The notes below the pieces were generated by a model. The model was not told the DNA's origin. It made no database searches and saw only the letters and a program-made list of their open reading frames with translations. The translations under genes and the position numbers were made by a program. DNA of 64,000 nucleotides from Plasmodiophora brassicae (lineage: Eukaryota): assembly GCA_036867785.1 (NCBI GenBank), contig CP145425.1, forward strand, positions 620,001 through 684,000. Direction: 5' to 3'. Positions 3,210 through 53,715 of the stretch are shown here, in pieces (within the stretch, counting starts at the first letter, position 1; each line of letters starts with the position of its first letter).

Positions 3210-3370
3210 TAATGCTACATCTACCCATGTCTCGGCGTTCCGGTCCCGTGCAGCGCCTCGCCCTGCAGTTGGTGCGCGTCGGCGGCGGCCGTCTGCAGTC
3301 ATCCCCAGTCGTAGGAACTGCAGTGTCCGGGACGCGGGAGCTACCGGCACGGGCCTACAGACATGTGCGT

Positions 3371-13400: not shown

Positions 13401-16400
13401 ATTCGAGAAGCTGCGGGCGGTGCTGGTCGAACACGTGCAACTGGCCTACCCCAAGAAGGATTTCCAGACCTGCCTCTTCACGGACGCAAGCGAATTCGCA
13501 TGGTCGGCGGTCGTGACTCAGATTCCAATGGAGGACATCGAATTGCCGATCAGTGAGCAACGACATGAACCGCTGGCGTTCTACGGGAAACGCTTCGACA
13601 ACACGCAGCTACGATGGCCTATCATAGAGAAAGAGGCAGCGGCGATCGTCCAGGCGACTACGCGAGGCGATTTCTTGCTGCAAACCGGACGTGAGTTCCT
13701 GCTCTACTGCGATCATCGGAATCTACGATACATCTTCAACAACGACATGGAGATGAAGAAGCACACAGCCGCAAAGCTGGAGCGGTGGTCCGTTCATCTG
13801 CAAGGATTCCGATACAAAATGGTGGACATCAGCGGGGAGGACAATGCGTGGGCAGATCTACTGACGCGATGGGGCGCGGGTCGAATCGCGCTTACGTGTC
13901 GGGCAACTCGAGTCATGTCCATGGAAGACCTGCGAGTAACCCCCATGGCGCACGACGGATTCGAATGGCCTCGTGAAGCCGACATACGACAATCCCAGAA
14001 GCTGCTGACCGATGACGAGAAGGCAGCATTCAAGGCGCAATGGGATGATCGCGACAAACTGTGGAAATCTGACTCTGGACAGGTGTTAATTCCAAGCCAT
14101 GACGACGCAGAGACGTTACGACTACGGATCCTGGTCGTGGCGCACTGCGGCAGTGCTATGCATCGTGGCGGGACAACCACCAGAGAAGCGGTTATGAGAC
14201 GATTCCGCTGGGCTGGAGTGGAGGAGCACGTGCAACAAATGTGCGATCAGTGCATGCACTGCGTCATCACTCGAGGAGGAGAACGGATTCCGCGGCCGCT
14301 GGGTCAGGCTGTTCACGGTCACGAAAGGTTTCAGGTGCTGCATATGGACTACATGTACGTCGAGCCGGTTCGCGGAGCGGACCACGACTACAAGTACATA
14401 TTGCTGCTCAAGGACGACTTCTCGGGACTTGTCCGCCTGATTCCTTGCACGAACGCGACGGCCCGAACTGCAGCTGATTCCCTGATGGCGTGGATCGCTG
14501 ACTTCGGGACGCCAGAGATCCTGGTTACCGATGGTGGTTCACATTTCACCGCTGAGGTGATGGAGGATTTGAGTCGGCTACGTCACGTTGCGCATCACAT
14601 CACGCTGGCGTACTGCCCATGGTCGAATGGAACGGTCGAACGGGCGAATGGAACGGTCGTGGAGATGCTGAGGAGCCTACTGAATGAGAACCAGATCGAC
14701 ACCCACAACTGGCCGTACGCATGTCAGCTGGTGCAACACGCCATGAACCATACGCCTTCAAAGCGTCGTGGAGGTCATGCACCGGTGACGGCGGCGTTTG
14801 GCATCCAACCGGAGAATCCTCTAGACCTGATCTGGGACTTGAAGGCTAGCAATTGGCGACCTGTGAATCCTGCGACCATTACTCAGCACATCGAGAAGAT
14901 GAAGGATGATTTCGACAACATACACAAGGATGTCGAGATGGGCAAAGAGAAGCGGCATCGAGCCAATGTCCAGCAGCGCAACAGGCAGCTGCGTCCTGGA
15001 GACGATGAAGCGTTCATTCCAGGTGACTACGTCTTGTGCGCACGACCGAACATGGGCCCGGGGAACAAACTGATCGCCAAGTGGAATGGCCCATTCCGTG
15101 TGCTGCAGCGACTGAACGATCAGGTGTACCTGCTGTACGATCCTCTTCACGAGAAGGAGTTTCGGGCGCACATCCAACGGATCAGACGATACGCTGATGG
15201 GAAGTTGAACATGACGGCGACGATGAAGAAGCATCTTCAGCACTCGAATCACAAGCTCTTGGTGGAGAATCTAGCTGACTGCCGATACAATGCGAGCGAG
15301 AAGCGAGTCGAAATCAAAGTGCTCTGGGAAGGATTCGAGGAAGCGGACGCCACATGGGAACCGGCGGACATCATAATCGAGGACGTGCCGACGATGGTTC
15401 GTGATCTGTATGACCGACTGGGAGATGACCACCCTCAGGCGGAGGAATTGCGAACACTGTTGAACTCGGCGGCGACGAACGGGAATCGCCAGCCTGCCTC
15501 GAAACGACGTCAAGCAAAAGGAGCGCGACGTCAGAGGACTAAACGACCACGGAATTGACGATATGATGACCGGCCGGCTGGAACATGGTAAAATAGCTGG
15601 TCGAAGGTTGCTAACTGTACATAGGCAACGAGGAACAACGACGCGAAAACGGAAAGGACGTCGATCGGACGCACGGTGCGCGGAGCACCTGCGTGGGCAC
15701 GGGGCCCGAACCACTGGGCATGGGACTCAGTCTGGGAACATTCAGCAAATTGGCCACTGAATGGGATCATGTACCAAATGGAAACCAACGGTACGGAACT
15801 CGCATATGCATGGGGAAACACTCCACCACAGTCGGATCCTAAAGATTGGACTTCGGCTAACCCTGGTAGTCAAACGGACGCCAGTCATCGGACTCCTAAA
15901 GATTGGGCTTCGGTGAACCGATATCGGATGGGAACGGAACTAACTACGGATGCACATGGCTGGACGCGGTGTGGGTATTCGTGGTGGTTGCGAGCGGAAC
16001 TTACTGGACGCAGTAGTGAGCTCACAACCGGCGCTGATGTAGTGTGTTGGACGCAACTCACAGAATCAGTGCATGGGGAACGGGAACTGGAATTGGATGG
16101 AACTGGGTGCGAATTGGGAACTGTGGGAGTTGGAAATGGTGCCTTAATGTCGGCGTATGACTTGTCGTACACCACATGGGGACGGTTGGATGGATCACTG
16201 GGAAATATGGACCGTTTGGTGACTCGCTGGAGTGATTTGGAATGGATGGGTGCCTGTAACGAGGTGACCACCTCCCACGTGGGGGTGGATGTCGTCAGTA
16301 TGGCTGAGAACTGTTAGCACTATGCTGACATGGTCCGGCGAATCTGATTCACTCAACTCCGTCCTTATTGCGATGAGTCTAATCTCAAGAAACGGGCGTG

Positions 16401-16693
16401 ACCAATCTGAACGCGCACACGAACCAAGTAACGCCTACGTGTCGCACGAATGCAGCAACGAGCCTACGTATCTCTACGTCTGCATCCAGGTCATGTTCGG
16501 AAAAGGGCAGTGTAGACGGTGGAGCAGTGCAGCATGCCCTGTCGCAGCCAGAGATACCAAGAACAGCATCTAGGAGAGGCAGCCCTAAGACCAGGAGAGT
16601 CCGTACGGCATGCGGGAAGGCCGGACGGGGTAGAGGAGAAGGATCGAGAGATCTGGGAACGAGGACGCTGAGGTTCTCTATACACGATCTACA
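10491..16693 (+). mobile_element. Full-length Ty3/Gypsy LTR retrotransposon, family W1
   Basis: Identical 183-bp LTRs (10491-10673, 16511-16693; TGTAG...CTACA), 4-bp TSD CTAC, purine tract GGAAAAGGGCAG before the 3' LTR. Confidence 0.97.
10711..15558 (+). CDS. Gag-Pol polyprotein, 1615 aa: Gag zinc knuckle, protease, RT, RNase H, integrase, chromodomain
   Basis: CFRCKGDHYVSDC; LDSE; YRLCVDLR..LDAFKGFW..WIDD; FTDAS..EKEA..YCDH; HMDY..TDGGSHF..NGTVER; GPF; VLWEGFEEADATWEP. Confidence 0.96.
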   Translation: MARRLKPGQQPMTEGLDPSSLKKLEEQYTDYCRITSEAEAYLPERERRGPVSIRNCFKFHERQAIAMDELGLQDEQEMTDAHLEAWMAEEIAQLGSRMAHNLKAAEKLLANELAMNTKLPFLIDRIKSIRFELRRLVSQNGLEWMNDDQAGRRVFGKLVVDAIKPIPLQKHMVDWVERDPEARTGDIEGLFQEAIRYANSVVDVLGNPSTSDKETVAQLRAIAKGNGGNYPRGVKVNKRGGRRSPEPTPKRQRFGGGFQRNGRGHEREGPNGRRGEGHGRHKTEGHGRDTPEGQQEVVPAGGGSQRNGGRNREDEHDGNRDTKKSPKGGCFRCKGDHYVSDCPQPPTEEERRGRGNRGINAARVRTYDGDASDDTLRATIGETTFECALDSECRGGNVIPANIAERLDDAAAIQEIDPIEIVLGDDKTTEVCSKVLAVPIMKLHGEHGTLTLYNMRFYISTMIAKTLLGNPILTAMGIDPKQQLESLMLTNVGVMQFDADSLETVERVTAKMIELSANHGCNPYANGEGEPTRSEIDLGKVDPSGISKAVNDMIKQAKKNGISRQGLRRLRKILNKHMNEFRTTLGSDPPVDVEPLRTDLKDGATPYRCKPRMYNPKQKEFLTDMIRMLKDNGRIFANMNSKWASPVLIVKKPHGDGYRLCVDLRQVNLRSEPTVWPMPNIEAGARKLEGMSCFFSLDAFKGFWLMPLDKSCQEMFSFMTDDSVWTPTRSIQGGLNTAPQFQARMVNIFDDLMDRMMVWIDDLLGFAKTEAELLELLANVFERAREVGLKFNPTKCTIFARELVWCGKIYSGNGIRHDPERIAALTSMPEPKTVKDLQQLMWAVGWMRTSIPDYPYIIEPLQEVVDRANEELKRTKSSSYASLTVDAMGWSERQREAFEKLRAVLVEHVQLAYPKKDFQTCLFTDASEFAWSAVVTQIPMEDIELPISEQRHEPLAFYGKRFDNTQLRWPIIEKEAAAIVQATTRGDFLLQTGREFLLYCDHRNLRYIFNNDMEMKKHTAAKLERWSVHLQGFRYKMVDISGEDNAWADLLTRWGAGRIALTCRATRVMSMEDLRVTPMAHDGFEWPREADIRQSQKLLTDDEKAAFKAQWDDRDKLWKSDSGQVLIPSHDDAETLRLRILVVAHCGSAMHRGGTTTREAVMRRFRWAGVEEHVQQMCDQCMHCVITRGGERIPRPLGQAVHGHERFQVLHMDYMYVEPVRGADHDYKYILLLKDDFSGLVRLIPCTNATARTAADSLMAWIADFGTPEILVTDGGSHFTAEVMEDLSRLRHVAHHITLAYCPWSNGTVERANGTVVEMLRSLLNENQIDTHNWPYACQLVQHAMNHTPSKRRGGHAPVTAAFGIQPENPLDLIWDLKASNWRPVNPATITQHIEKMKDDFDNIHKDVEMGKEKRHRANVQQRNRQLRPGDDEAFIPGDYVLCARPNMGPGNKLIAKWNGPFRVLQRLNDQVYLLYDPLHEKEFRAHIQRIRRYADGKLNMTATMKKHLQHSNHKLLVENLADCRYNASEKRVEIKVLWEGFEEADATWEPADIIIEDVPTMVRDLYDRLGDDHPQAEELRTLLNSAATNGNRQPASKRRQAKGARRQRTKRPRN

Positions 16694-17156: not shown

Positions 17157-17697
17157 CCCCAAACTCCGTGGATGACATACTATGTCATGCACAGGCCTCT
17201 TTAAAGTAGAACATTGCCCTATTCGTACTATTCTAGCTTAAATAGTACACCTTGGGACGCTTAGAATAGTACATCTAGTACATCTACAGAATTCTGTCCA
17301 GTAGACGCCCTAGAATCGATCTAAGCTTAGTGTTTATCAATGCAGCAGGCCCTAGAAACGATTTGCCACATCCTGGAGTGCGCGGTATTGCTTGGCATAC
17401 ATGAATATTCCTTCCAGAACGAAATCTGTCATGGCGGCGCAATAGGCATTCCGGCGATAGGACATTAAGGAGAAGTCACCCTCGACCCGACTAGTGGTTG
17501 GCATCACGGGATACAGTTGTTGAGCCGTCATCCTCTGTTGCACAGTCGGGTTCAAATACATCCAAGCGGACCAAGCCCGTGTCACCGGCAGGTTCTTTGT
17601 CACGATCAGGCAAGCTGATGCAACGAACGCTTTGACGGACTGGCGAAGTCCGTCGCGGGGTTCGGGATTTATTCAGTTATCACAGAATAGTCCTCTT

Positions 17698-20690
17698 CTA
17701 GCGATTGGGTCTCCGCCGGTTTCGGGAGCGAGGGCCAGGTTTATCGGGATATCGAGCATGAAATTCAGCAATCGCTTGGTCCAGGCCTCCTGTCCCATGG
17801 AGATTGCCCGCGGGTTCCCAGGTGCGATCGGACGGGGAGTATCCTTCCCAATCTATGAGATATTGCAACCGCCCCGACCGGTATCGGGAATCCAAGATCG
17901 ACTTAACGATGAACAGGGGCTGGTCGTCATCTTCCAATACAATGGGCGGCGGCGGTGGCTGTTGGCGATGTGGAAGGACATTAGGCGTATACGGTTCCAG
18001 CTGTGACACATGGAAGACGTTATGTAGGCGCGAGGTAGGAGGCAGCTTCACTTCGTATGCGACGGGGTTAACTGTGCGAACAACTTGGAAGGGTCCCAGC
18101 AGACGGTCATCCAGTTTCCCGCACGGGCGGCCAGTCGATAAGGTTCCACGCCTGAGCATGACGAGATCGCCCACCTGCAGTGGTGGTGGTTCGCGGCGAC
18201 GGCGATCCGCAGAGCGCTTCATAGCGTCGACCGCCCGTTGCAGTTGGCCCTTCAAGTAGCGGCGAACCTTCTCAAGGAATTCGGCACGCTCATCGGCGGC
18301 TGGGTTACAGACTTGGCCATTCCTGGGTCGAGGCTCCGTCACCCTTGGATGAAACCCGTAGTTGGCGAAAAACGGCGACATGCCGGTGGCCGAATGGTCG
18401 GCGTTGTTGTACGCGAACTCGGCCATAGGCAGAAGTTGCAGCCAGTCGTCCTGCATGTAGCTAACATAGCAGCGTAAGTATTGTTCGAGGATCTGGTTCA
18501 CGCGTTCCGTCTGGCCGTCGGATTCCGGGTGCCGGGATGAAGACAAGTTCCGTTGGATACCAAGACGGTCCAGTAAGTGCTTCCAGAAGGCCGACACGAA
18601 CTGGGGCCCCCGGTCGGAGACGATGTCGTCCGGTAGGCCATGCAGGCGGAATATCTGCTGCAAAAACAGGTCGGACAGCTCGACCGCTGTGAGGGTCTCC
18701 TTGCACGGAATGAAGTGGGCCATTTTCGAAAACCGGTCGACGACGACGAGGACCGAATCGTAGCCGTCGGAAACTGGAAGCTTGACAATTAGATCCATTG
18801 AGATCGATGACCACAGAGAACTCGGCAAGGGAAGAGGCAGCAGGAGCCCGGACGGTTTGTGGCGCGGAGACTTGCTTCTCTGACAAATGTCGCAGGATGA
18901 GACGTACAGTTTGACGAAGGCCCTCATGCCAGGCCACCAAAATTCACGCTGGACAAGCCCAAGCGTTTTGCGGATACCAAAGTGACCAGAGGCCCTATTA
19001 TCGTGGAGTTGCCGGAGGATCTCGATCTTGCATTCGTCTCCGGAGACGACCAAGGAGCGTCCTTTGTACAGGAGGCCGTCTCTCAGGCAATACTTCCTAC
19101 CTTGAGGTCGGTCGAGCAGACCGGCAATCTTGGCGACGAACGGATCACTCGCTTGGTGTCGTCGGATACGGTCTAGGAGAGGCTCGGACGGAGCCGCCTC
19201 CGCGTGGACGGTGAACGCGTCCACCACGGGGGACGGAACTAGGCGATGAAGCGGGAGCAGTTGGAGAGATTGTTGCAGGATGCCTTCTTCAGACGCCGTC
19301 GGGACGTACTCCGGGCGGCGCGTCAAGGCGTCAGGTTTACCGTGCAAGCGGCCCGGTCGGTGCTGAATCATGAAGTCGAAGCCGCTAAGCAGTTGGGACC
19401 ATCGGATTTGGCGCGGATTAAGCTTGTGGGTCGTCATGAAGTACTTGAGGTTGCGGTGGTCGCTGTGCACAAGTGTCTGATGTTCATCCGAATCCAGGAA
19501 CTGGCGCCATTTCTCGAAGGACGCAACAACGGCCAGGAGCTCTTTGTCGTAGACCGCATATCGGATCTCAGCGGGGTCCAGTTTCCTCGAAAAGAACGCC
19601 AGAGGGTGTAAGTCCCCGTCACGGCCCCGTTGTGAGAGGACCATGGCAATGGCGAAGTCGGAGGCATCCGTTTCAATCTCGCACGGCACGCTAGGATCGA
19701 AGTGGGCGAGGACCGGAGCGCGTGTGAACGCGCTCTTCAGAGTTGCGAAGGCGGTCGAAGCAGTCTCGTTCCAGATAAATTCGGTTTCCCCGCGAGTAAG
19801 GTTCGTCAAGGGAAGTGCGATCTCCGCGAAATGCGGGATGAACTTTCGGTAGAAGTTGGCGAACCCAAGGAAGACTTGCAGCCCGTGGAGGTCACGCGGC
19901 GGGGCCCACGCGAGTATTGTGTCTACTCGGCTGGGATCCAACCGGAGGCCGTCCTTGGACACTAAGTAGCCGAGGAATTCGACCTCCGGTGCGTCGAACA
20001 AGCACTTAGACAGTTTGGCCGTCAGGCGCGCGGAGCGTAGACGTTCGAGCACCAAACGCACGTGCTGTTCATGTTCCTCAGCATTCTTGGAGAAAATCAA
20101 GATGTCGTCAAGGTAAACAACAACGAAACGGTCAATGAAGTCGCTGAATGTCTCGTTCATGAAGGCTTGAAAGGATGCCGGGGCGTTGGCAAGCCCGAAG
20201 GGCATAACCAGGTACTCGAACAATCCGTACGGTGTCCGGAATGCTGTCTTCCATTCGTCACCTTCGCGAATGCGGATCTGGTTGTACGCACTTCGAAGGT
20301 CGATCTTGGAGAAGACCGTTGCTTGACCGAGTGTCGAAAGCAGCTGGTCGATGAGCGGAAGTGGGTAACGGTTCTTCACGGTGACCGAGTTCAGGCCTCG
20401 GTAATCAACGCAAAGCCGTAACGAACCATCCTTCTTCTTCGCGAAAAGGATCGGCGCGCCGGCAGATGAACGCGACGGCCGTATGAAGTTCGACTGGAGG
20501 TTATCTTCCAAATACTTCTTGAGGGCTACCTGTTCGCGGGGAGACAAGCCGTAGAGGCGACAGAATGGAGGCTCCGTCCCCGGTTTCAGGTCGATCGAGC
20601 AGTCAGAGGCGCGGTGCGGCGGTAAGGATGTGGCGGTGGCCTCGTCGAACACGTCGGCAAAATCCTGGTATTTTTCAGGTATCTTCGTCT
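17698..20690 (-). CDS. S1 Pol: RT, RNase H, integrase, chromodomain
   Basis: [73 protein letters not shown]. Confidence 0.95.
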
Positions 20691-22061
20691 GCTCTGACTC
20701 GGGTGTCCTCGGTCCACGTATAATGGATGAGGTAGCACTGAGCGTCGTCCATGAGTGCGTCCAGGAACGGTTCGGCGTCGACTAGATGGATGGGAACGTT
20801 GGCCGCCAGAGGTTCTTCAGTGCTTGGTGCCGGCAAGGGAACGTGGTCGATCCGCGTCCCGTCGCCTTGATTAGAATCCGTGGGCCGTACGTCGCACGAC
20901 GACTGTGGAGCATCTCCGGCTAGAACGTCAGGGCCGGCGTTCGGCGGGGCGATCGGACAGGCGTCGTCAGATGACGTGTTTAGATAAGCACGAAGGTCGA
21001 CGCGTGCGGGTTCGCGGCACATAGTGACGAAGGCAAGCGCCCAAGCGGCCGCCACGATGGATGAGCACATGAACAGGCTGACCACCTGGCGTGCCCTGGA
21101 ACCGTCGTCCAAACGACAATCTGGTAGACGTCGACCGGCTCCCCGCCTGTGTCGCTGCTCCCGCGCCGGCGACGTTAGCCAGCCTGTCTGGTCGGGGAAC
21201 GATTCGAGCTCGAGGCAGTTCGCAGGGGTGTTACCGGTGTCAGCCGTTTCCAGGTCGCCAGCGGCTTTGTCCTGAGTCTCAATTGCGGCTGTCGCCAAGG
21301 ACTCTGCCACCCGGCGTTCATCGTTGGCCGCAGGCGGCAATGGTGTCACGATCAGGTCTTGTGCGGAAGTTGGATCTGGATGTTGTTTTGTGTTAACAGG
21401 CGCCTGGGCGATGAGCGGAGCTGCACTAGAGGCGTCCAGGGCCGGATAACGGCAGTCGTCGTGTGGCGCAGCCACGCTTGCCTCGGTTGTCTCAGCTTCT
21501 GCATGGCCAGGATCCGCCACAGTTGTCGGCGTTGACGTTGACGGCGAGGGGGGGCACTGGCGCGGCGAGACGAGCCGCCGGCGCCAATCCACATCTGGAT
21601 TAGTCTGGGCTAGCCAGGGCAGACCCAGGGATGACGGGATAGGTCGGCGAATTGATCAGATTCAGGACGATCTCACACGAGAACTGGGCGTCCACCGTCG
21701 TTCTCAACGGCTGAGTCTCCTGTGATATAGGTGCGAGCTGGCGGCCGTCGACAACGCGGACAGGTATCGGACGATGCGTCGGGCGGGTAGGCAGAACGTG
21801 GAGCCGCGCGAAGGACCAGTCGATAAAGTTGCTAGTCGCGCCACAGTCGATCAAGGCCGTTGTCGAGATACTTTCGGACCCGGTGTATATGGTCATCGGA
21901 AGTACGAGATGCGGGACAGAGCGGGCGTGGAGAAACATGAGATCGCTTATTTGAACAGGGTCGGGTTCGGATGACAATGCAGAGTTTACTGGGTGGCCGG
22001 CGAACCCGTTGGCGGTCACCCTTGGACATTTCCCGGTGCAACCGGCGGCCGTTTCGGGCAA
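20675..22061 (-). CDS. S1 aspartic protease plus ~300-aa linker with a hydrophobic helix (frameshifted near 21628 and ~20700)
   Basis: [13 protein letters not shown]. The expected VILGLPWL motif is split across frames. Linker ORF 20675-21592. Confidence 0.8.
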
Positions 22062-22864
22062 TCCGCGATCCGGTGGCCATCTTCTTTGCAGTAGAAGCAG
22101 AGGCCGTCCTTGCGGGCACGCTCACGGGCATCGGCGGCGACAACCTTCGGAACGGGGTAGCGCGGGCAGAGGTGTTTCGCCTTTTTGACCATCTCGTCGA
22201 AGTCGGTGATCATGTCCTCGAACAGTTTTTCCGACAAGGCAGTATGCAGCGACTTCCGGAACTTCGACGCGCGCCGGGCCGAACTCATCTTGAAGGTTGC
22301 ATCCGCGCGCTGAAGCGCTTGATACAAATTGTTGAACATCAACACATGCTCTTCGACAGGTTCGGTCTGGGTGAGGTTGTCGAAGCACTCCTCCAGCTGT
22401 TCGAACGTCGGCACCGGAAACCATTTTGACATCGCGTAGGACAGGTCGGCCATCGTGGCGTCGTCCGGCAGCCCGAAATAGACTTCCAACGCCGGGCCTT
22501 CCAGCGATCTAAGAAGGGCGCTGTGCGCCGCCGGCGGAAGGCGGGTCGTCGATGACGGGAGCTGCAGCGTCCTTGACAGACACTTCAGAAAGTCGCGGGA
22601 GTTCGTGGAACTGTCGCGAATACGCCCGGTAAAGCGGGGCAGGTGGATCTGGTGGTCGACGATGTGTCGGGATGTCGGCGACGGCTCGCTCGGCGGCATC
22701 TTGTCGGGCAGCGAGCGATTTATCGCTGTCCCAACGGCATCTTCGACCCGGTCGGCCACTACGGACTGCATAGCTTTCAGCTGGTGCAGCATGTCGCTGA
22801 CAGTGAGCGTGAGGTCCCGCACTTGATCTGCCAGTGCGGCGATCTGGTCCTCGCTCGTTGTCAT
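22016..22864 (-). CDS. S1 Gag
   Basis: LPRFTG capsid-like motif and [14 protein letters not shown] zinc knuckle. Confidence 0.9.
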   Translation of the reverse strand: MTTSEDQIAALADQVRDLTLTVSDMLHQLKAMQSVVADRVEDAVGTAINRSLPDKMPPSEPSPTSRHIVDHQIHLPRFTGRIRDSSTNSRDFLKCLSRTLQLPSSTTRLPPAAHSALLRSLEGPALEVYFGLPDDATMADLSYAMSKWFPVPTFEQLEECFDNLTQTEPVEEHVLMFNNLYQALQRADATFKMSSARRASKFRKSLHTALSEKLFEDMITDFDEMVKKAKHLCPRYPVPKVVAADARERARKDGLCFYCKEDGHRIADCPKRPPVAPGNVQG

Positions 22865-22904
22865 CGCGAACACACCGGTAGACGGACAGGAAACGGGACG
22901 GCAG

Positions 22905-23018
22905 GAACGGAGCGGGCGGAACGGAGCGGGCGGAACGGAGCGGGCGGAACGGAGCGGGCGGAACGGAGCGGGCGGAACGGAGCGGGCGGAACGGAGCGGG
23001 CGGAACGGGGCGGGCGGG
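22905..23018. repeat. 14-bp tandem repeat (GGAACGGAGCGGGC)n in the S1 5' leader
   Basis: About 8 copies read directly. Confidence 0.9.
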
Positions 23019-25857
23019 ACGGCGGTGACCGTTGGTTAGTCCGTCAAAATGTCACGATCAGGCAAGCTGATGCAACGAACGCTTTGACGGACTGGCGAAG
23101 TCCGTCGCGGGGTTCGGGATTTATTCAGTTATCACATTCTTCGCTTTCCGAATCGTCCTGCCAGCTGGACGGAGCAACACATCGCGAACGACCACGCCGA
23201 CAATAATCTTATCGATTGTGATGATTCGTTTGCGGCCAACAACAGTGCTGTGTTTCTCAAAGAACACCTCAACGGCAGTCTGATTGAAGAAATTCCTGAG
23301 AACTTCAGGTGTCGAGGCGTCAAGGTTACGGAGATTGGAATATTCCATGAGTCCATACCTTCGTAGGGTGCTGCTCAATCATATTCTTGCGAATATATCC
23401 TTCCAATGTTTGCGATTCACCGTTTTCTTTCGTTTCCGACCATCAGCAACTTCGTCATCTGCATCCTCGCGCCCCCAGCACTCACAAAAGCGGCACACTA
23501 ACAGCCTCAACAGAGCCACTGCTTTCGTTCCGTGACGTCACTCGCATCCGAACTCAAGTTCGAACTTATCCAGGTAGGGATATAATCGTTTCGGATGTTT
23601 ACGTGGAGGACCCGACATCGCGGCAGCTATCACGGGTCAGTGGGGGTGTTAGGCTGCTCCGGAACAGTACAAACAGACTCGGGGAAGTCCGTAGGCACTT
23701 GGTAAGTCCGCCACGCACTAATTAAAATAGTACAGACAGGTGCCCTTATATTAGTACATTGTACTATTCTAACGCGATTGTACTACTTTATCGAGCCCTG
23801 CATGACTCATGCAGGGCTCGGGTGTCAGAAATAGCTTTTCCGTTGTATGACATAGTATGTCATGTATGGGGGTGATTTCCGGTGGCCTGTTGCAACGGCT
23901 AGACTGACAACTATGCTGTCTGAATCGGTTCGAATGGCGTAGTCCGCCGTGCGGCGTTACCTGCGGACTTTCGTCCGATTTGAAACCGAGTGGGTTCCAT
24001 GGAGGAAGACCGCAAAGTGTGGGAGGCGGCTGTCCGCATGCTGCGGGCTGCATATGACGATGATCATGTCCGAGCACAGTGGTCTCAACCCGACGACGAG
24101 GTCAACGATGATGGGCAAACAATGTACGTAGGTTTTCCGGTATGACTACGAGAGCAGCTGCTCTCGTGGCCGAGTTGGGCGGTCCGGTCTACATGATATA
24201 TGATAACAGGGCCTATGAACACTTCTCGAGCGAAGCAAGTTTACAGTGTCGATGCATGGCTTCTTGCAAATGCGAGGCTCGTCGTACCTATTGTTTGCGA
24301 CGACATCAAAATAGTCGTTGAACAAGACGTCCGCGACCAGTCTCATCATGGTGTCGGATGTTAGCAACCTGTGTCTACAGTACTCTTGTTTCTTTGATGT
24401 TCCGGTGCGTTGCCTTCTGACATCCTTGCAGGCCATTGTTTTCGCATCTGTCGACAGCTGTTAACAGCCAACGGGCTGCCGCCCATTTGTCGCGCTTGAA
24501 TCCCGATGCGATATGGGCGATGAGCCTCTACGCGACGACGCCGACTGATACCTTCGACCCTGAGTGGTCGGATTCGTATCCACTGGCGTTTGCCGTCGAG
24601 AAACAAGCATGGTGGGAACATCGAGCACTTCAGTGCTGTGTGCTGTCTTGGTAACCGTTCCTGGCGTTTTGCGTGAACACGTGAACATTACTTGCTTGCT
24701 TGTCAGCGCATCGGGGACAAACATGCTGGACCTGCGCAGATCGACGCTTTACCCGTACCCACTCTGGAACACGCGGTTGATCACCACATTGTTAAGTTCT
24801 GGCGACAAATGAAGCAAGCGCTTCTTCAATGCCGAAGCCCACCTCCTGCCCGCGAAATCGTCCCAGCCGCTGTCTGGTTCTGAAATCATGTGAAAGGCGG
24901 CCAGGACGTTGTCTCGAGAGAGAGAGATGAACAATGTTAAGGTATGCAAATACCGCGATGTATGAGATCCATTACTGAACAGTGGCACCAGGTCGATTTC
25001 CGGCGACCGTCCCAAGACGTTAAATTGGCAGCGGCTTTGTTTCGTGTGCATGCTAAATGCGCACGAGCTGTGGCGTCTGCAGCAGCTGCAATCCCGTATT
25101 GCCGATGTGTCCAGTTTCGACAAATGGAAACATTTGTTGAACGATGAGGGTCCTTCAAACATTTTCTTCGGCTGGCCTGCCGCGACTGAGTGCCTTCTGA
25201 ATTGCAGCGTGCAGCAGAGGCAGCTGACAATCCAGTGCCGCTCCTCCAGCCACCTAAGCGGAATCTTCGGTTGTTCTTCCTGACTGAGGACGGTCGCGCG
25301 CTCCGTTTCAGACAGGGCATACGTTGTCCAGCGCTCTGGCAATAAGGGGGATGTTTACTGGGTCAATATCGGGAACCGAATGGGACATGTCGACAATGCA
25401 GCACGACGGTGTGGTGCAGCATTTGCCAAGTGCCGTTATGCAAGACGAGATTCGGTTCAAATACGTTATCATGCTTCGACAGATTCCATGATCCCGGTGA
25501 TGTCAACCTGTCTGTCCAGTTCCGCCCTGACAGTCGGACCGGGGAACGTGTATTCGACTTGGGCGTTCTGACGAACGATCGCCGTCCTCTCCTGAAGGTG
25601 GTTTGGACGCATTACTGCTTGCAAGTGGAGGACCTACAGTGCAGTCCATCGGCGGACGCCCACGACACGATGTGGCCACTTTACCCTCGGAAAACCCGGC
25701 AAGCAATCGCTCCGGACGCCGCTCGCGTGGACCAGTGACACGCTCGCAGTCCAGTCGATGATCGCATCCCCTTTGATCTTCTTGAGAATGCACCAGAGTA
25801 TCAATACAGGCAAAAGTGTGTTGCATGACATACTATGTCATGCTGCCTTTGCATGAC

Positions 25858-33085: not shown

Positions 33086-33761
33086 ACACAATAGACGAAT
33101 GACGTTCGTCCCATCGATCCCATACCCCGCTCTCCCACCAGCGACGCACGTGATCGCGTGCTCTCGATTCCCGCATATCTCGACACATGAATCTCTGGCG
33201 CATGAGAATATTGTAGAGCGGGGCTCTATATTTAGCGTCTCGTGCCCGACCTCAAGATGCTGCTGTCCTGAGGAGGGGGTCCTGCTGTCCTGAGGAAAGG
33301 GGGCCTGCACGGATTTAGCTCCACTGTGATGGCATGGCCCGACGCCGTGGACGGGATGGATGATAAAGCTCATTGGGATACTGGCTCGAGACTGACAACA
33401 GTGCGCACTCTGTCTGATCCCACACGTCTGACTTCGTCCCGCACCACGTTCGAGACGCTGCGCCACGGCATCGGAGACGACGTCCAGCACGGACGAGCAT
33501 ATTGGTGTCAAGGACGCGGATGTCAGCATCCTGCCACGGGTCGCGAAGTTGGACTCCACATCCATCTTGAAGTTGAAAGAGCAATAGAGTTATCCGTAAA
33601 CCCCCTAAACTGACAGCGAGTCACAGTCTGTTCACCACCAGAATGGGTGCGCGGCCTCGTCATGAGGTTCCAAATATAGACTGGCAGGCAAACTTTGAAA
33701 GGCCTCTGGGACGGTCCCCAAAAAGTTTTCAACTTCACTCTGAGTTGCAACAGTGGTCGTC

Positions 33762-34538
33762 ATGGACACGTCATCGTCGTCTTCCAGCGAGAGCGAGGTC
33801 GGCGTTCAGGCGATTGCGGCACCAGTAGGCCATGGCCAGCGCGACCAGTCCGAATTCAAGCCGAAGGGAAAGAAGGTTCGCGAGTTCGTGTCCACTGAGC
33901 ACATCTCTGCGCTGGCTGACAGCTACTACTCGCACTTCGAGCATTACTGCGAGGGCCGCAAGAAGGCGGTGACGCAAGTGATTCCAGGAGCGGTTTGGAA
34001 ACAGGTCAGGTTCACGATTTGGGCAACTCGTACTCCTGGTATTGATTTATGTTTCAAGGTCTACGCCGAGTACCGACAAAAGTTCCCCGATTCGACGTTC
34101 TGCGAGGCGAACTTGAAGGTTCGCCTTCGCGACACGCTCCTGGAGCTCAAAACCGGTACCTCCAACATGGAAAACGTGCCGAAACGCGAGCTTCAAGCCA
34201 AGTCGGTGATTGAGCGACTTAAGACGCTCGATTCACACTGCAAGCGGAACGTCATCCAGTTGCGTGACTCAATCGTGCAGCGGAAGACCCCCGAAAAGAA
34301 GCCACGGGTTGAGTCGCCGTCTCCCCCTGACACGGCGGCTCCGAAGAACAAGGCGCAGGCTCTGTCCTGTCAGGCAATGGCGTTCACGCAGATCGCGAAA
34401 GCGATGCACGATCGAGGTCGCCTAACCGAGTCCCGGATCAAGCAAACGGAGCTCTCAAATCTCAAGGAGCTCCGTGATGCGGGCGTCATTTCGGACGAGG
34501 AGTTCAGGCAGAAGGCCCGCACCCTTATGGGGCTTTAA
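33762..34538 (+). CDS. Accessory (Myb/SANT-like) protein of the Harbinger-type element with SHOCT-like C-terminus; probable 54-nt in-frame intron ~34005-34058
   Basis: Position opposite the transposase; WKQ|VYAEY..FP..LKVRLRD; C-terminal LSNLKELRDAGVISDEEFRQK. Confidence 0.65.
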   Translation: MDTSSSSSSESEVGVQAIAAPVGHGQRDQSEFKPKGKKVREFVSTEHISALADSYYSHFEHYCEGRKKAVTQVIPGAVWKQVRFTIWATRTPGIDLCFKVYAEYRQKFPDSTFCEANLKVRLRDTLLELKTGTSNMENVPKRELQAKSVIERLKTLDSHCKRNVIQLRDSIVQRKTPEKKPRVESPSPPDTAAPKNKAQALSCQAMAFTQIAKAMHDRGRLTESRIKQTELSNLKELRDAGVISDEEFRQKARTLMGL

Positions 34539-34575
34539 ACATGGCGTGTATTTCGATAAAGGTTCTTCGCGCTTG

Positions 34576-49558: not shown

Positions 49559-49720
49559 CAGTGCGGGCACGGTGGCCTATTCGGGCAGGACGCAATAAAA
49601 TGCCCAACTTCGCGACAATAGTGGCAAGCCAGGGGTTGTGCCCTTGCATCACCGCCAGCGTTGATGGCGGCGATTGGGTATTTCGACTCAAGATGAGCTG
49701 TGACGACAGAGCAAGATGTG

Positions 49721-52171
49721 TCAACCACACGGATTGACCGACTGAGGTCGGTCCGCGCCGTGGACGTTTATTGTACCTAGTGCGCTACGAAGGAGCCCAA
49801 TTTGGTGCCGGCTGAGTCGCCAACACGACTCAGTCGTGACATAATAGTCCCCTTTTAGCCGCACCGGGAACGGGCTGCGGGCTTGTCTGGGTGGAAGCAT
49901 TTGGTGAGGCCTAGCAAGAACTGCTTCATCATTAGGCGACAGTCTGTACTCCAGTCGACGAGTCAGGGCGTCAGGTGTCCAATGAACGAAACCAACTTCG
50001 CTAAGGAATTGGAGTGAACGAATCTGTCGTCGATGTAGCTTGTGGGCAAACGCACGTGCGGCGGCGTCCAGGAACATGAGATCGAGGTTGAGAAACGCGA
50101 TCGAGGTTGATGAGGCCTGGTCATCCTCTAGCGTAGCAAAAGGTGCAAAGAAGGACTCGGCGGGCGCATTCAAGGGCGGGGGCTCCGCAGAGGCGCTCGT
50201 ACACAGCTGTGCTATTGGAAAATACGGCCACCCAACTAGGATCCAGGTCAGGGCGACAACGGTTGCGAACATCAGAAGATTGAGGCTGTGGCCGTCTCGG
50301 AAGCCATCATTGGAGGGAGGCGGCGGGAGAGGCCGTCTGGCCCCTCGTCGCACGGGGCCCCAGTTCCGGAAGGAGGACATAAGGGGCGTGGACTCGGAGC
50401 CTGAACGGGGCAATGATAAGAGATCGGCGCGGCTGGGGGCAACAGTATCATTGAAGGCGGCGACCCCCGGGATGCTACCATAATCGAATGCGGAAGGGCG
50501 CGGCAACGTGTCAAGTGATTCAGCTGAAGGCCGGATGGCACACGCAGGCGCAGGAACGCTTCGTGCAGGAGGTGAGACCCCAGCTGAGAGACTATCCCCG
50601 CGCTTTACTGTTGCAAATGGTCCCGCCGAAGAGACGAAGGACCCAGACTCATGGACGTCTCCTGTACGGCGTGACATCCCCACGAGGGTATCTCCGCGGC
50701 GCTGTAGGCGGCGCTGACGCCAATCGATATCTGGGTTTGTATCCGCCAACCAAGGCAGCCCAAGAATGACAGGGTGTTGAGGCGAGTGGATCATGTTCAG
50801 GACGACGTCGCTGTCGAAACATTCGTCGACGGTAGCACGTAGCGGGACGGTTTCCTGAGTTACTGGAGACAGGTGTCGCCCGTCGATGACGCGAACAGGA
50901 ATGGCACGCGATTTAGAGCGAACCGGTATTTCGTGGTGACGACAGAACGACCAGTCGATGAAGTTGGAAGTCGCACCACAGTCTAACAGGGCGAAGGTGT
51001 TGACACGGCGTGAGCCGATAACGAGGCATACCGATACCAACAGATGCGGTATTGAGGGAGACGTCATAAGGAACAGATCAGTGACGTGGAGAGGGTTGCC
51101 GGACCGCTCGGGACACAGCGATGAGCGGTGGCCAACCTTACGACAGTGCGGGCACGGTGGCCTCTTCGGGCAGGACGCAATAAAATGCCCAACTTCGCGA
51201 CAATAGTGGCAAGCCAGGGGTTGTGTCCTTGCATCACCGCCAGCGTTGATGGCGGCGATTGGGTATTTCGACTCAAGATGAGCCGCCATCTCGAGAATTT
51301 TGTCGTAGTCTCTGAAGTTGTACAAGAACAGCGCTTCGGAGAGCGCAGGGTTCAGCGAGAGGCGGAACTTTTCCGCCAAGCGGGCCGGACTGAGTCTGTA
51401 CAATGGGTCAAGTCGTTGAAGGTCCTTGTACAAGCGTTGGAATGCCAGTGCGTGGTGAGCGACACCTGCAGTCTGCTTCAGGTTGTCAAACTTCGCTTCA
51501 ACCTGCTTGAACGAAGGTCCCGGGAAGTCATGGAGCAGGACGGACGAAACGTCCGCCATAGACGCGTCCGCAGGCAAGTCGAGGTAAGTCTCAAGAGCCT
51601 GACCTTGCAAGGCTGTCGTTAAGACACATTGCACTTCGCCGGATAGAGGACTTGTAGACGTTAACGACGTCTGGGTGATCCGAGAGAACGCAGTCAACCA
51701 GCGCGTCGTCGACAGACCATCCCTTCCCGAAAAACGCGGAATGTCTTGTGACTGGACAACAATAGACGTTAAGGGTGGGCCCGGAGACACCCGTGGCGCC
51801 GGCACCCGAGCCCCAACGGACGAAGCGCCAATATGCTGCGACGTTGGGGAGACAGGGTCATGCCGAGGCGCGCCGCCGGGGTCCTGCAGAGACGTCGAGG
51901 CGGCAGAAACGTGTAGGGACGATAAGGCAGGCGGGGAGTGACGGTCCGAAGAGGACAGAGAGTCGTCGGGCCAATCGGCAGCGGTACTATTGAGCGAATG
52001 CGGGGTGAGCGGTCGTGCAGGGAGATGATTCGCCAGTGGCCGAACACCACGCGCGAAGTGCAGCTGCGACAGGGGACCGAGAGCAAAATCCGACGCACCC
52101 GCAACATCCGGATTCGCGGACGATGGGACGTCGTCCGTCAATGACGGAATCGACCCATCGCCTCCTGCCAT
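49721..52171 (-). CDS. S2 Gag-protease-TM polyprotein (~816 aa), running into the 3' LTR
   Basis: IPRFSG, two CCHC knuckles, [21 protein letters not shown], hydrophobic LNLLMFATVVALTWILVGW. Confidence 0.88.
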   Translation of the reverse strand: MAGGDGSIPSLTDDVPSSANPDVAGASDFALGPLSQLHFARGVRPLANHLPARPLTPHSLNSTAADWPDDSLSSSDRHSPPALSSLHVSAASTSLQDPGGAPRHDPVSPTSQHIGASSVGARVPAPRVSPGPPLTSIVVQSQDIPRFSGRDGLSTTRWLTAFSRITQTSLTSTSPLSGEVQCVLTTALQGQALETYLDLPADASMADVSSVLLHDFPGPSFKQVEAKFDNLKQTAGVAHHALAFQRLYKDLQRLDPLYRLSPARLAEKFRLSLNPALSEALFLYNFRDYDKILEMAAHLESKYPIAAINAGGDARTQPLACHYCREVGHFIASCPKRPPCPHCRKVGHRSSLCPERSGNPLHVTDLFLMTSPSIPHLLVSVCLVIGSRRVNTFALLDCGATSNFIDWSFCRHHEIPVRSKSRAIPVRVIDGRHLSPVTQETVPLRATVDECFDSDVVLNMIHSPQHPVILGLPWLADTNPDIDWRQRRLQRRGDTLVGMSRRTGDVHESGSFVSSAGPFATVKRGDSLSAGVSPPARSVPAPACAIRPSAESLDTLPRPSAFDYGSIPGVAAFNDTVAPSRADLLSLPRSGSESTPLMSSFRNWGPVRRGARRPLPPPPSNDGFRDGHSLNLLMFATVVALTWILVGWPYFPIAQLCTSASAEPPPLNAPAESFFAPFATLEDDQASSTSIAFLNLDLMFLDAAARAFAHKLHRRQIRSLQFLSEVGFVHWTPDALTRRLEYRLSPNDEAVLARPHQMLPPRQARSPFPVRLKGDYYVTTESCWRLSRHQIGLLRSALGTINVHGADRPQSVNPCG

Positions 52172-52199
52172 GAATGCAATACAATACCAACGATAGAAG

Positions 52200-52395
52200 C
52201 GGTACGGCACGATACGATACGGCACAATACGATACGATACGGCACAATACGATACGATACGGCACAATACGATTCGATACGGCACAATACGATTCGATAC
52301 GACACAATACGATACGATACGGCACAATACGATACGGTACGGCACAATACGATACGAGTCGAGACAATACGATACGATACGGCACAATACGAGTC
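52200..52395. repeat. Pentamer-based tandem repeat (GATAC/GGCAC/AATAC; ~20-bp unit) in the S2 5' leader
   Basis: Read directly; only about 2 units in the older copy (53495-53535). Confidence 0.9.
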
Positions 52396-53715
52396 GAGAC
52401 AAGACGACGACAGAAGGTTAGTCGGTCAAAATGTGACGACAGAGCAAGATGTGTCAACCACACGGATTGACCGACTGAGGTCGGTCCGCGCCGTGGACGT
52501 TTATTGTACCTAGTGCGCTACGAAGGAGCCCAATTTGGTGCCGGCTGAGTCGCCAACACGACTCAGTCGTGACATGAGCCGCCATCTCGAGAATTTTGTC
52601 GTGGTCTCTGAAGTTGCAGAAGAACAGCGCTTCGGAGAGCGCAGGGTTCAACGAGAGGCGGAACTTTTCCGCCAAGCGGGCCGGATTGAGTCTGTACAAT
52701 GGGTCAAGTCGTTGAAGGTCCTTGTACAAGCGTTGGAATGCCAGTGCGTGGTGAGCGACACCTGGGGTCTGCTTTAGGTTGTCAAACTTCGCTTCAACCT
52801 GCTTGAACGAAGGGCCCGGGAAGTCATGGAGCAGGACCGACGCTACGTCCGCCATAGACGCGTCCGCAGGCAAGTCGAGGTAAGTCTCAAGGGCCTGACC
52901 TTGCAAGGCTATCGTTAAGACACATTGCACATCGCCGGATAGAGGACTTGTAGACGTTAACGACGTCTGGGTGATCCGAGAGAACGCAGTCAACCAACGC
53001 GTCGTCGACAGACCATCGCTTCCCGAAAAACGCGGAATGTCTTGTGACTGGACAACAATAGACGTTAAGGGTGGGCCCGGAGACACCCGTGGCGCTGGCA
53101 CCCGAGCCCCAACGGACGAAGCGCCAATATGCTGCGACGTCGAGGAGACAGGGTCATGCCGAGGCGCGCCGCCGGGGTCCTGCAGAGACGTCGAGGCGGC
53201 AGAAACGTGTAGGGACGATAAGGCAGGCGGGGAGTGACGGTCTGAAGGGGACAGAGAGTCGTCGGGCCAATCGGCAGCGGTACTATTGAGCGAAGGCGGG
53301 GTGAGCGGTCGTGCAGGGAGATGATTCGCCAGTGGCAGAACACCCCGCGCGAAGTGCATCTGCGACAGGGGACCGAGAGCAAAATCCGACGCACCCGCAA
53401 CATCCGGATTCACGGACGATGGGACGTCGTCCGCCAATGACGGAATCGACCCATCGCCTCCTGCCATGAATGCAATACAATACCAACGATAGAAACGGTA
53501 CGGCACGGTACGATACGGCACAATACGATACGAGTCGAGACAAGACGACGACAGAAGGTTAGTCGGTCAAAATGTGAAGACAGAGCAAGATGAGTCAACC
53601 ACACGGATTGACCGACTGAGGTCGGTCCGCGCCGTGGACGTTTATTGTACCTATTGCGCTACGAAGGAGCCCAATTTGGTGCCGGCTGAGTCGCCAACAC
53701 GACTCAGTCGTGACA

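What the first reader, a model, noticed from the sequence alone, without database searches (positions are those of the whole stretch)
23038..23136. tRNA-independent self-priming signature, with covariation, in two short-LTR Gypsy families
Seen: neither S1 nor S2 has a TGG-type tRNA PBS. On the element strand the S1 PBS TTTGACGGACT (23038-23048) is the exact complement of AGTCCGTCAAA inside its own LTR (23083-23093). The S2 PBS TTGACCGACT (52420-52429) complements AGTCGGTCAA in its LTR (52467-52476). The families differ by a compensatory C-G to G-C swap, and both have an AATAAA/TATA-like box about 25 nt upstream of the matching A. Known: fission-yeast Tf1 primes from the first 11 nt of its own mRNA. 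Inference: a Tf1-like self-priming lineage in this non-yeast genome.
Basis: partly seen in the sequence, partly recalled or inferred. Interest (0 to 1): 0.8.

Follow-up and report, generated by a model that had tools for sequence, protein, structure and literature searches.

The report
Self-priming retrotransposons in the clubroot parasite
Two related jumping genes in what is almost certainly the clubroot parasite Plasmodiophora brassicae carry the sequence signature of copying themselves with a primer cut from their own RNA instead of a host tRNA, a trick long known from fission yeast and its relatives, so this is a new host rather than a new mechanism.

Summary
S1 (17598-23136, minus strand) is a complete chromodomain Gypsy element with identical 87-bp LTRs and a 5-bp target duplication. 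S2 (49699-52574, nested in a second S2 copy) has 143-bp LTRs. In both, the sequence just after the 5' LTR has no TGG. Instead it is the exact complement of 11 nt (S1) or 10 nt (S2) lying 44-45 nt before the LTR end, which 1 of 5000 shuffles matched. The two families differ by a matched C:G to G:C swap. An AATAAA box sits 29-32 nt upstream.

Three other LTR families in the window lack the signature. Nine or more metagenomic relatives (40-53% Pol identity) show it with different sequences. An empty site in 4 of 4 other runs shows that S1 moved recently.

The best reading is Tf1/sushi-type self-priming (about 0.8). The transcription start could not be tested, because no RNA run and no host genome or tRNA set were available. 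The mechanism is already described in print for fungi, vertebrates and non-seed plants. This is therefore a new member in a new host group (Rhizaria).

Unexplained extras are a third, covarying arm in U3 that forms a hairpin with the primer, and tandem repeats in both leaders.

The parts
17598..23136 (-). S1: complete chromodomain Ty3/Gypsy LTR retrotransposon (5539 bp)
   Evidence: LTR pair 100% identical. TSD TTCTT. Pfam RVT_1, RNase H, integrase, SH3_Tf2-1 and Chromo. Empty site 17592|23137 in 4 of 4 other runs.
23050..23136 (-). S1 5' LTR, 87 bp, TG...CA
17598..17684 (-). S1 3' LTR, 87 bp. It is preceded on the element strand by the purine-rich tract at 17685-17699.
23038..23048 (-). S1 primer-binding site TTTGACGGACT, starting 1 nt after the LTR's terminal CA
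   Evidence: Variant contigs in 3 of 4 runs keep the LTR and this site but differ from 23036 leftwards (table 7).
23083..23093 (-). S1 candidate self-primer AGTCCGTCAAA (LTR positions 44-54). A 23093 is the predicted first base of the RNA.
   Evidence: Exact complement of the PBS, matched by 1/5000 shuffles. The 12-bp closing stem gives MFE -26.9 kcal/mol, z -3.6. The start site itself is inferred, not shown.
23099..23106 (-). S1 U3 arm GACGGACT. It has the same sequence as 8 nt of the PBS and forms an 8-bp hairpin with the primer (loop 23094-23098).
   Evidence: 37-nt fold -15.0 kcal/mol, z -3.5, 0/200 shuffles
23120..23125 (-). S1 AATAAA box, starting 32 nt upstream of A 23093. It could be a TATA-like box, a poly(A) signal, or both.
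   Evidence: its function is inferred
23051..23076 (-). S1 predicted U5 hairpin between primer and PBS
   Evidence: -8.2 kcal/mol alone. The pairing register is not conserved in S2.
22878..23036 (-). S1 leader: about 10 tandem copies of a 14-nt unit immediately after the PBS
   Evidence: family D6
22016..22873 (-). S1 gag ORF with a CCHC zinc knuckle
17698..22121 (-). S1 pol (PR-RT-RH-IN-chromodomain), in the -1 frame relative to gag. In this copy it is broken into three frames near 21628 and 20701.
   Evidence: In 4 of 4 other runs the contigs lack one base at 21628 and one at 20701 (table 4).
49699..52574 (-). S2a: internally deleted S2 copy (2876 bp) with identical 143-bp LTRs (49699-49841, 52432-52574) and TSD TGAGC (49694-49698, 52575-52579). 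It is inserted in the gag of another S2 copy.
52420..52429 (-). S2a primer-binding site TTGACCGACT, 2 nt after the LTR's CA
52467..52476 (-). S2a candidate self-primer AGTCGGTCAA, 45 nt before the LTR end
   Evidence: 1/5000 shuffles; MFE -23.9 kcal/mol, z -3.6
52480..52486 (-). S2a U3 arm GACCGAC, forming a 7-bp hairpin with primer bases 2-8. It carries the family-specific base.
   Evidence: 36-nt fold -19.0 kcal/mol, z -3.95, 0/200 shuffles
52500..52505 (-). S2a AATAAA box, starting 29 nt upstream of A 52476
52169..52425 (-). S2a leader tandem repeats (10/20-nt unit) directly after the PBS
   Evidence: family D2
53573..53715 (-). S2b 5' LTR (97.9% identical to S2a). The same PBS lies at 53561-53570 and the same primer at 53608-53617. 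This host copy is interrupted by S2a and cut off at about 49558 by another Gypsy element.

Best explanation
S1 and S2 are two related families (Gag 44% identical) of chromodomain Ty3/Gypsy retrotransposons. Their host is almost certainly Plasmodiophora brassicae. They start minus-strand DNA synthesis by Tf1/sushi-type self-priming.

Proposed mechanism:
1. Transcription starts at or next to the A of AGTC(C/G)GTCAA, about 30 nt downstream of an AATAAA box in a very small U3.
2. These first 10-11 bases fold back over a U5 hairpin and pair with the site 1-2 nt beyond the 5' LTR.
3. The element's RNase H cuts the RNA at the end of this duplex.
4. The freed 3' end primes reverse transcription.

Because the plus strand copies the primer, the PBS is rewritten from the primer at each cycle. 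This explains why the two families show a matched C:G to G:C difference.

Shown here: the anatomy, its non-random nature, its presence in relatives, and the recent mobility of S1.
Inferred: the start site, the cleavage, and the priming itself.
For: 1. Exact 11-nt (S1) and 10-nt (S2, two copies) complementarity between the post-LTR sequence and the LTR. Shuffles matched it in 1/5000 each. The three other LTR families in the window (4 LTRs tested) gave 0-6 nt, at chance level.
2. The U5 end of an LTR is set by where the primer's 3' end sits. Here the duplex begins 1-2 nt after the terminal CA, the usual spacing that integrase trims. Whatever primes must pair exactly there.
3. There is no TGG after the LTR. 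No tRNA-like or other credible Rfam match was found in 22700-23300 (3 matches up to E 10, none above 25 bits).
4. S1 and S2 align through R-U5-PBS and differ at the centre of the duplex on both sides.
5. Folds of the primer-to-PBS stretch give a 12-bp or 10-bp closing stem around an inner hairpin, with z -3.6 in both.
6. An A/T box starts 32 nt (S1) and 29 nt (S2) upstream of primer base 1. My motif scan found a box at -27 to -37 in 4 of the 9 relatives with the signature.
7. Among 80 metagenomic relatives, L009 (13-14 bp), L037 (12), L052 (10), L012 (11), L013 (11), L021 (10), L062 (10), L075 (10) and L076 (12) have a post-'CA' sequence complementary to a site 90-240 nt upstream. Each has its own sequence, and the sisters L012, L013/L037 and L021 show further matched changes. 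Inverted repeats of this geometry occur at 0.236/kb in the expected zone and 0.047/kb in pol coding sequence.
8. S1 pol carries RVT_1, RNase H, integrase, SH3_Tf2-1 and Chromo domains. It groups (SH-aLRT 98) with these relatives and a frog chromovirus, far from the window's two other Gypsy families.
9. S1 is competent, or was very recently. Its LTRs are identical, an empty site with the 5-nt duplication was found in 4 of 4 other runs, and several other LTR-flank junctions appear.
10. The mechanism and its spread in the Tf1/sushi group are in print (passages read).
Against: - No transcript data. No RNA holder was listed, and the four runs laid were contigs that carry flanks and the empty site, so they are DNA. 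The start site at 23093/52476 is therefore untested.
- No host genome is held, so the PBS could not be compared with the host tRNA set.
- The covariation between S1 and S2 is a single event.
- Of the three duplexes of the published 'pretzel' structure, only the central one is strong. The duplex between the U5 region and the sequence after the PBS is no better than shuffles (180/500, 346/500 and 451/500 shuffles as good). The inner hairpin is not in the same register in S1 and S2.
- In the energy-based test on 18 of the 31 loci that had candidate LTR pairs, only L009 (0/300) and L037 (5/300) stood out with the expected geometry.
- Well-bounded relatives such as L028 and L071 (matching TSDs) show no signature.
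- On the tree the signature is scattered and not clustered (5 changes; 334/500 shuffles as low).
- With the start at LTR position 44, only 33 nt of R-U5 lie beyond the primer. An AATAAA 26 nt upstream leaves open where the RNA 3' end forms.
- The U3 arm can pair with the primer and would compete if transcription started further upstream.
Confidence: 0.8

Rival explanations
1. A host RNA (a tRNA fragment, a half-tRNA as in copia-type elements, or another small RNA) primes at this site. On this view the LTR-internal complement is a by-product or has another role.
For: The host tRNA set could not be examined: no genome is held, no tRNA is in the window, and no tRNA sequence was recovered in my aragorn scans of the 80 loci plus the window. 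Half-tRNA priming exists in other LTR elements (passage). GGTTAGTC next to the PBS is conserved between S1 and S2.
Against: S1 and S2 differ in the middle of the site, and each matches its own LTR, not a common RNA. There is no TGG. No tRNA-like Rfam match was found. Relatives have unrelated PBS sequences that each match their own LTR.
Confidence: 0.07
2. The inverted repeat is a leader stem with another job, such as packaging, dimerisation, translation control or start-site/3'-end definition. On this view priming uses something else or another register.
For: A third arm in U3 covaries with the other two and forms a stable local hairpin with the primer, so the motif has a role beyond a simple primer-PBS pair. 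The extra 'pretzel' duplex is not supported.
Against: The stem's 3' arm lies exactly where a primer must pair, 1-2 nt after the CA that ends the LTR. No alternative PBS is visible. The same geometry recurs in distant relatives that lack the U3 arm (8 of 11 elements).
Confidence: 0.1
3. The complementarity is chance, or an artefact of LTR boundary calling.
For: The LTRs are short, and only two families are in the window.
Against: Shuffles matched the complement in 1/5000 in each of three LTR copies. Boundaries are fixed by 100% identical LTR pairs, TG...CA ends and 5-bp TSDs, and for S1 by the empty site.
Confidence: 0.01

Closest known systems
Tf1 and Tf2 of Schizosaccharomyces pombe, and Tj1, Tosmo1-3 and Tcry1 of other fission yeasts
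   Same: These are chromodomain Ty3/Gypsy elements. Their PBS is complementary to the first 11 bases of their own RNA. They have a duplex next to the 5' LTR's CA and a stem-loop between primer and PBS. S1 also matches the Pfam model SH3_Tf2-1 (passages).
   Different: Here the LTR is 87 or 143 bp, with only 44-45 nt from primer to LTR end. Gag and pol are in different frames (-1) rather than one ORF or an in-frame stop. The third 'pretzel' duplex is not supported. An extra U3 arm pairs with the primer. The host is a rhizarian parasite. Priming, cleavage and start site have been tested for Tf1 but not here.
Other Tf1/sushi-group elements predicted to self-prime: Tcn1 (Cryptococcus), Maggy/Skippy/Cft-1-type fungal elements, sushi-ichi and other vertebrate chromoviruses, and the moss/club-moss Tcn1 clade
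   Same: Self-priming is inferred from sequence alone, exactly as here, in non-yeast hosts. S1's closest named non-Plasmodiophora relatives include a frog chromovirus (43% identity), an amoebozoan and a charophyte alga. They lie in one clade with S1 on my tree.
   Different: The host groups named in the papers I read are fungi, vertebrates and non-seed plants. I found no paper joining Plasmodiophora or Rhizaria with self-priming. No named Tf1/sushi reference sequence could be put on my tree.
Plant TAR-lineage Ty1/copia elements predicted to self-prime
   Same: They lack a tRNA-type PBS and have an LTR-derived complement (passage).
   Different: They belong to a different superfamily, so this is convergence or a separate origin, not kinship.
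Skipper (Dictyostelium), Tcn2-5 and SM-Tcn1: chromoviruses without a TGG PBS and without an LTR complement
   Same: They are also chromoviruses lacking a tRNA-type PBS (passages).
   Different: Those lack the LTR complement that S1 and S2 have. They resemble instead the window's other Gypsy families G3 and G4.

Membership tests
Tf1/sushi group of self-priming chromoviruses | Ty3/Gypsy domain order with a chromodomain at the integrase C-terminus | tested here: met
   Pfam on the S1 pol ORF: RVT_1 3e-38, RT_RNaseH 5e-33, Integrase_H2C2 1e-21, rve 1e-10, SH3_Tf2-1 2e-20, Chromo 5e-12
Tf1/sushi group of self-priming chromoviruses | [quoted passage not shown] | tested here: met
   11 nt in S1 and 10 nt in S2 (two copies), matched by 1/5000 shuffles each
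Tf1/sushi group of self-priming chromoviruses | The complementary LTR sequence is the 5' end of the element's RNA | not testable with these tools
   No RNA run was listed, and only DNA-like contigs were laid. An A/T box at -32 (S1) and -29 (S2) is consistent but is not a test.
Tf1/sushi group of self-priming chromoviruses | RNase H cuts the RNA at the end of the primer-PBS duplex and the primer is extended | not testable with these tools
   This needs biochemistry or cDNA intermediates.
Tf1/sushi group of self-priming chromoviruses | Three-duplex 'pretzel' RNA structure: primer-PBS plus two duplexes between PBS-adjacent and LTR sequences | tested here: inconclusive
   The central duplex is strong. 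An inner hairpin that uses the U5 end is predicted in both families, but in different registers. The duplex with the sequence after the PBS is no better than shuffles (180/500, 346/500, 451/500).
Tf1/sushi group of self-priming chromoviruses | RT/RH/IN phylogeny places the element inside the monophyletic Tf1/sushi group | tested here: inconclusive
   Quick ML tree of 90 rows. S1 and two other P. brassicae proteins form a clade (support 100). That clade sits inside an 86-row clade (support 98) with a frog chromovirus, an amoebozoan protein and all 80 metagenomic relatives, several of which carry the signature. No named Tf1, Tf2, sushi or plant chromovirus reference was available, so the group's boundary could not be drawn.

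The most novel reading that the evidence does not exclude
S1 and S2 may be a minimal version of the self-priming design, with a regulatory layer not described for Tf1. The layer is a three-way covarying module of U3 arm, self-primer and PBS. The U3-R hairpin exists only in the 3' copy of R if transcription starts at the primer's A. It could hide the 3' copy of the primer from the PBS, or mark the RNA's start or 3' end. This would let an LTR of only 87 bp carry promoter, primer and end signals, with the leader's tandem repeats supplying what the tiny U3 cannot. It would also be the first self-priming chromovirus lineage shown in Rhizaria, and one that is currently mobile in a crop parasite.
Probability: 0.2. 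Interest if true: 0.5.

Novelty: new member of a known kind. Interest (0 to 1): 0.3.

Why it matters
It extends the host range of a well-studied but unusual way of starting reverse transcription to a rhizarian plant parasite. It gives two compact, naturally paired test cases: 87-bp and 143-bp LTRs with a matched base change. It also shows that at least one of the families has moved recently among isolates. That bears on the transposon-rich variable regions now being described in clubroot genomes (passages). It does not change what is known about the mechanism.

Tried and rejected
- Whole genome of the window: not held. No genome-wide copy census and no host tRNA comparison was possible.
- tRNAs: none in the window. 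My aragorn scans of the 80 loci plus the window recovered no tRNA sequence (parsed none; searches show empty or near-empty output). The tRNA alternative therefore could not be tested against real tRNAs.
- RNA evidence: no RNA holder was listed among 24 runs. The four runs laid (three labelled 'RNA?' as a guess) were contigs carrying flanks and the empty site, so they give no information on the start site.
- Rfam on 22700-23300 with loose thresholds: 3 weak matches, none credible.
- Third 'pretzel' duplex: not supported.
- Energy-based duplex test on relatives: significant with the expected geometry only for L009 and L037. L041 (34/300) and L052 (49/300) are not significant by this measure, although their exact or bulged complements are well placed. 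L024's best duplex lies 580 nt before the LTR end and was not counted.
- Inverted-repeat scan: many hits in L031, L055 and L080 are A/T-rich low-complexity matches and were not counted as signatures.
- First tree attempt failed because rows with stops had been dropped. It was redone with query-anchored rows.
- Papers by Levin and Lin (PMC1369541, PMC109269, PMC230564) are not held. The mechanism is cited from passages in other papers.
- A search for 'shortest LTR' gave nothing usable (listing only). My recollection that LTRs under 100 bp are rare but known is not checked.
- Supplementary files, for example the per-element PBS tables of the plant survey, could not be seen.
Full report
**What is there**

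S1 lies on the minus strand from 23136 to 17598.
- Its two LTRs are 87 bp, begin TG and end CA, and are 100% identical.
- A 5-bp duplication, TTCTT, flanks the element. A purine-rich tract precedes the 3' LTR.
- The internal part encodes a Gag with a zinc knuckle and a Pol with RVT_1, RNase H, integrase, SH3_Tf2-1 and chromodomain matches.
- Pol is in the -1 frame relative to gag. In this copy it is split into three frames near 21628 and 20701.
- At exactly those two places, both in short homopolymer runs, the contigs of 4 of 4 other runs lack one base (table 4). The breaks are therefore either private to this copy or assembly errors.

S2 has 143-bp LTRs.
- The copy at 49699-52574 is internally deleted, with identical LTRs and TSD TGAGC.
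- It sits inside the gag of a second S2 copy whose 5' LTR is 53573-53715.
- That host copy is cut off near 49558 by another Gypsy element.
- S1 and S2 Gag are 44% identical, so these are related but well separated families.

**The signature and chance**

On the element strand the S1 LTR ends ...GTGACA and is followed by T, then TTTGACGGACT. The exact complement, AGTCCGTCAAA, occupies LTR positions 44-54. In S2 the LTR ends ...GTCACA and is followed by TT, then TTGACCGACT. AGTCGGTCAA lies 45 nt before the LTR end, in both S2 copies.

I shuffled the 20 nt after the LTR 5000 times. A complement as long arose once in each of the three cases. The window's other LTR families served as controls: Gypsy G3 at 10491-16693, Gypsy G4 at 54288-59622 with a second copy from 33212, and a Copia at 39471-44909. 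They gave 0-6 nt, at chance level.

The two families align through this whole stretch. Within the shared 10-nt duplex they differ only at the central base, on both sides. Neither has TGG after the LTR. Rfam found nothing tRNA-like.

**Structure**

From the A of the LTR site to just past the PBS, both RNAs fold into a closing stem around an inner hairpin.

| Family | Closing stem | Energy | z | Shuffles as good |
|---|---|---|---|---|
| S1 | 12 bp | -26.9 kcal/mol | -3.6 | 0 of 200 |
| S2 | 10 bp | -23.9 kcal/mol | -3.6 | 1 of 200 |

The inner hairpin uses the U5 end in both families, but not in the same register. The published Tf1 structure has three duplexes, the 'pretzel' (passages). The third one, between U5 and the sequence after the PBS, is no better than shuffles here.

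An AATAAA box starts 32 nt (S1) and 29 nt (S2) upstream of the A. That is ordinary TATA-to-start spacing, by general knowledge.

Just upstream of the LTR site lies a third arm. It is GACGGACT in S1 (23099-23106) and GACCGAC in S2 (52480-52486). It has the sequence of the PBS and forms a local hairpin with the primer:
- S1: -15.0 kcal/mol, z -3.5, 0 of 200 shuffles as good.
- S2: -19.0 kcal/mol, z -3.95, 0 of 200 shuffles as good.

The family-specific base is changed in all three arms. If the RNA starts at the A, this arm is transcribed only in the 3' LTR. I have no tested explanation. It could mask the 3' copy of the primer, or help define the start or the 3' end. Among 11 elements with the signature, only S1, S2 and L009 have such an arm.

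**Host and mobility**

The S1 Pol ORF is 100% identical to a protein that a source names as from Plasmodiophora brassicae. Two more proteins of that species are 69% and 62% identical.

Twenty of 24 listed runs, from 11 studies, hold at least 0.94 of the sampled words of S1. None is on record as RNA. In the four runs laid:
- A contig joins 17592 to 23137 with 5 shared bases. This is the empty site, so this insertion is polymorphic.
- The element itself is present at several-fold higher depth than the flanks.
- Several contigs join the LTR to other flanks.
- Contigs in 3 of the 4 runs keep the LTR plus the 12-13 nt of the PBS but differ from 23036 leftwards. A separate variant differs only in the first 10-15 nt of U3.

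An element with this LTR and PBS has therefore transposed recently.

**Relatives**

A profile of S1 Pol and 23 hits recovered 80 metagenomic loci with 40-53% identity.
- Thirty-one loci had candidate repeat pairs around the Pol match.
- With exact matching, L009 (13 nt), L037 (12) and L052 (10) had a post-LTR complement that at most 1 of 1000 shuffles reached.
- In an energy-based test on the 18 loci whose repeats do not touch contig ends, only L009 (0/300) and L037 (5/300) were clear. L041 has a well placed 13-bp bulged duplex (34/300). L028 and L071, both with matching TSDs, had nothing.
- A scan that needs no second LTR was run on the 42 of 80 loci holding at least 900 nt of the zone 1.5-4.5 kb upstream of RT. 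It looked for arms of 10 nt or more, a loop of 20-320 nt, and CA 0-3 nt before the second arm. It gave hits in 16 of 42 loci (0.236 per kb), against 0.047 per kb in Pol coding sequence.
- After setting aside A/T-rich hits, L012, L013, L021, L037, L052, L062, L075 and L076 look like true primer-PBS pairs, plus L009 outside the zone.
- The sisters L012, L013/L037 and L021 have AGTTTGAAAAT, AGTTCGAATAT and AGTCTGAAAT, each matched by its own PBS. This is further covariation.
- Like S1 and S2, five of these nine primers begin AGT or contain it at their second base.

On a quick ML tree of 90 rows, S1 and the two other P. brassicae proteins form a clade (support 100). That clade lies inside a clade of 86 rows (support 98) with a frog chromovirus, an amoebozoan protein and all 80 loci. 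G3 and G4 are distant. The signature is scattered over this clade and not clustered (5 changes; 334/500 shuffles as low).

**Mechanism**

The best reading is Tf1-type self-priming. [quoted passage not shown]

Two arguments go beyond resemblance. First, the end of U5 is set by the primer's 3' end, and the duplex starts 1-2 nt after the CA. Whatever primes must therefore pair exactly where the element's own RNA can. Second, the plus strand copies the primer to make the PBS; that the Tf1 self-primer is not removed is known to me only from the title of a paper in the reference list read. A change in the primer is then written into the PBS, so matched changes between families are expected under self-priming and not under tRNA priming.

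The start site, the cut and the priming are inferred. I put this reading at about 0.8.

**Comparison and novelty**

Self-priming is described or predicted for the following (passages read):
- Tf1, Tf2, Tj1 and other fission-yeast elements.
- Tcn1.
- Several filamentous-fungus elements.
- Vertebrate sushi-type elements.
- The moss/club-moss Tcn1 clade.
- Plant TAR copia elements.

Three searches joining Plasmodiophora or Rhizaria with retrotransposons or self-priming found only general repeat annotation of clubroot genomes (passages). Supplements could not be seen.

This is therefore a new member of a known kind in a new host group. It has small LTRs, a gag/pol frameshift, and an unexplained third arm. 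Membership in the Tf1/sushi group by phylogeny remains open, because no named reference sequence could be used.

Noticed in passing
window 22878-23036 and 52169-52425: Both S1 and S2 have tandem repeats in the leader directly after the PBS (14-nt unit in about 10 copies; 10/20-nt unit in about 12 copies). The repeat sequences are unrelated. With a U3 of only about 43 nt in S1, these may carry regulatory or packaging functions.
   Followed up: no
window 23099-23106 and 52480-52486: A third arm in U3 has the sequence of the PBS, pairs with the self-primer and carries the family-specific base. It is also present in relative L009, but in only 3 of 11 elements with the signature.
   Followed up: partly
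window 17592/23137: The S1 insertion is absent (empty site, 5 shared bases) from contigs of 4 of 4 other runs that otherwise hold the element at higher depth. The insertion is polymorphic, so the family has been active recently.
   Followed up: yes
window 20701 and 21628: The window's S1 copy has one base more than the contigs of 4 of 4 other runs at two homopolymer runs, exactly where its pol frame breaks. These are private mutations or assembly errors.
   Followed up: partly
window 10491-16693 (G3, + strand; second copy 44911-49559) and 54288-59622 (G4, - strand; second copy 33212-38965): Two further Gypsy families (G3 with a weak Chromo match) have neither a TGG-type PBS nor an LTR complement after their 5' LTR. 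This resembles the 'unknown priming' reported for Skipper and Tcn2-5.
   Followed up: partly
window 39471-44909: A Copia element (RVT_2) on the minus strand has 189-bp LTRs that are 96% identical. Together with the other elements it makes the window a nest of LTR elements inserted into one another.
   Followed up: no
window 61309-62486: A long array of 24-nt tandem repeats lies inside an 864-aa minus-strand ORF (60360-62954) that matches the proline-rich Cornifin repeat model. It is probably a repetitive low-complexity protein or not a gene.
   Followed up: no
window 1841-3943: A 700-aa ORF has a weak JAB/MPN match just below Pfam's cut-off. It is one of the few non-transposon candidates in the window.
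   Followed up: no
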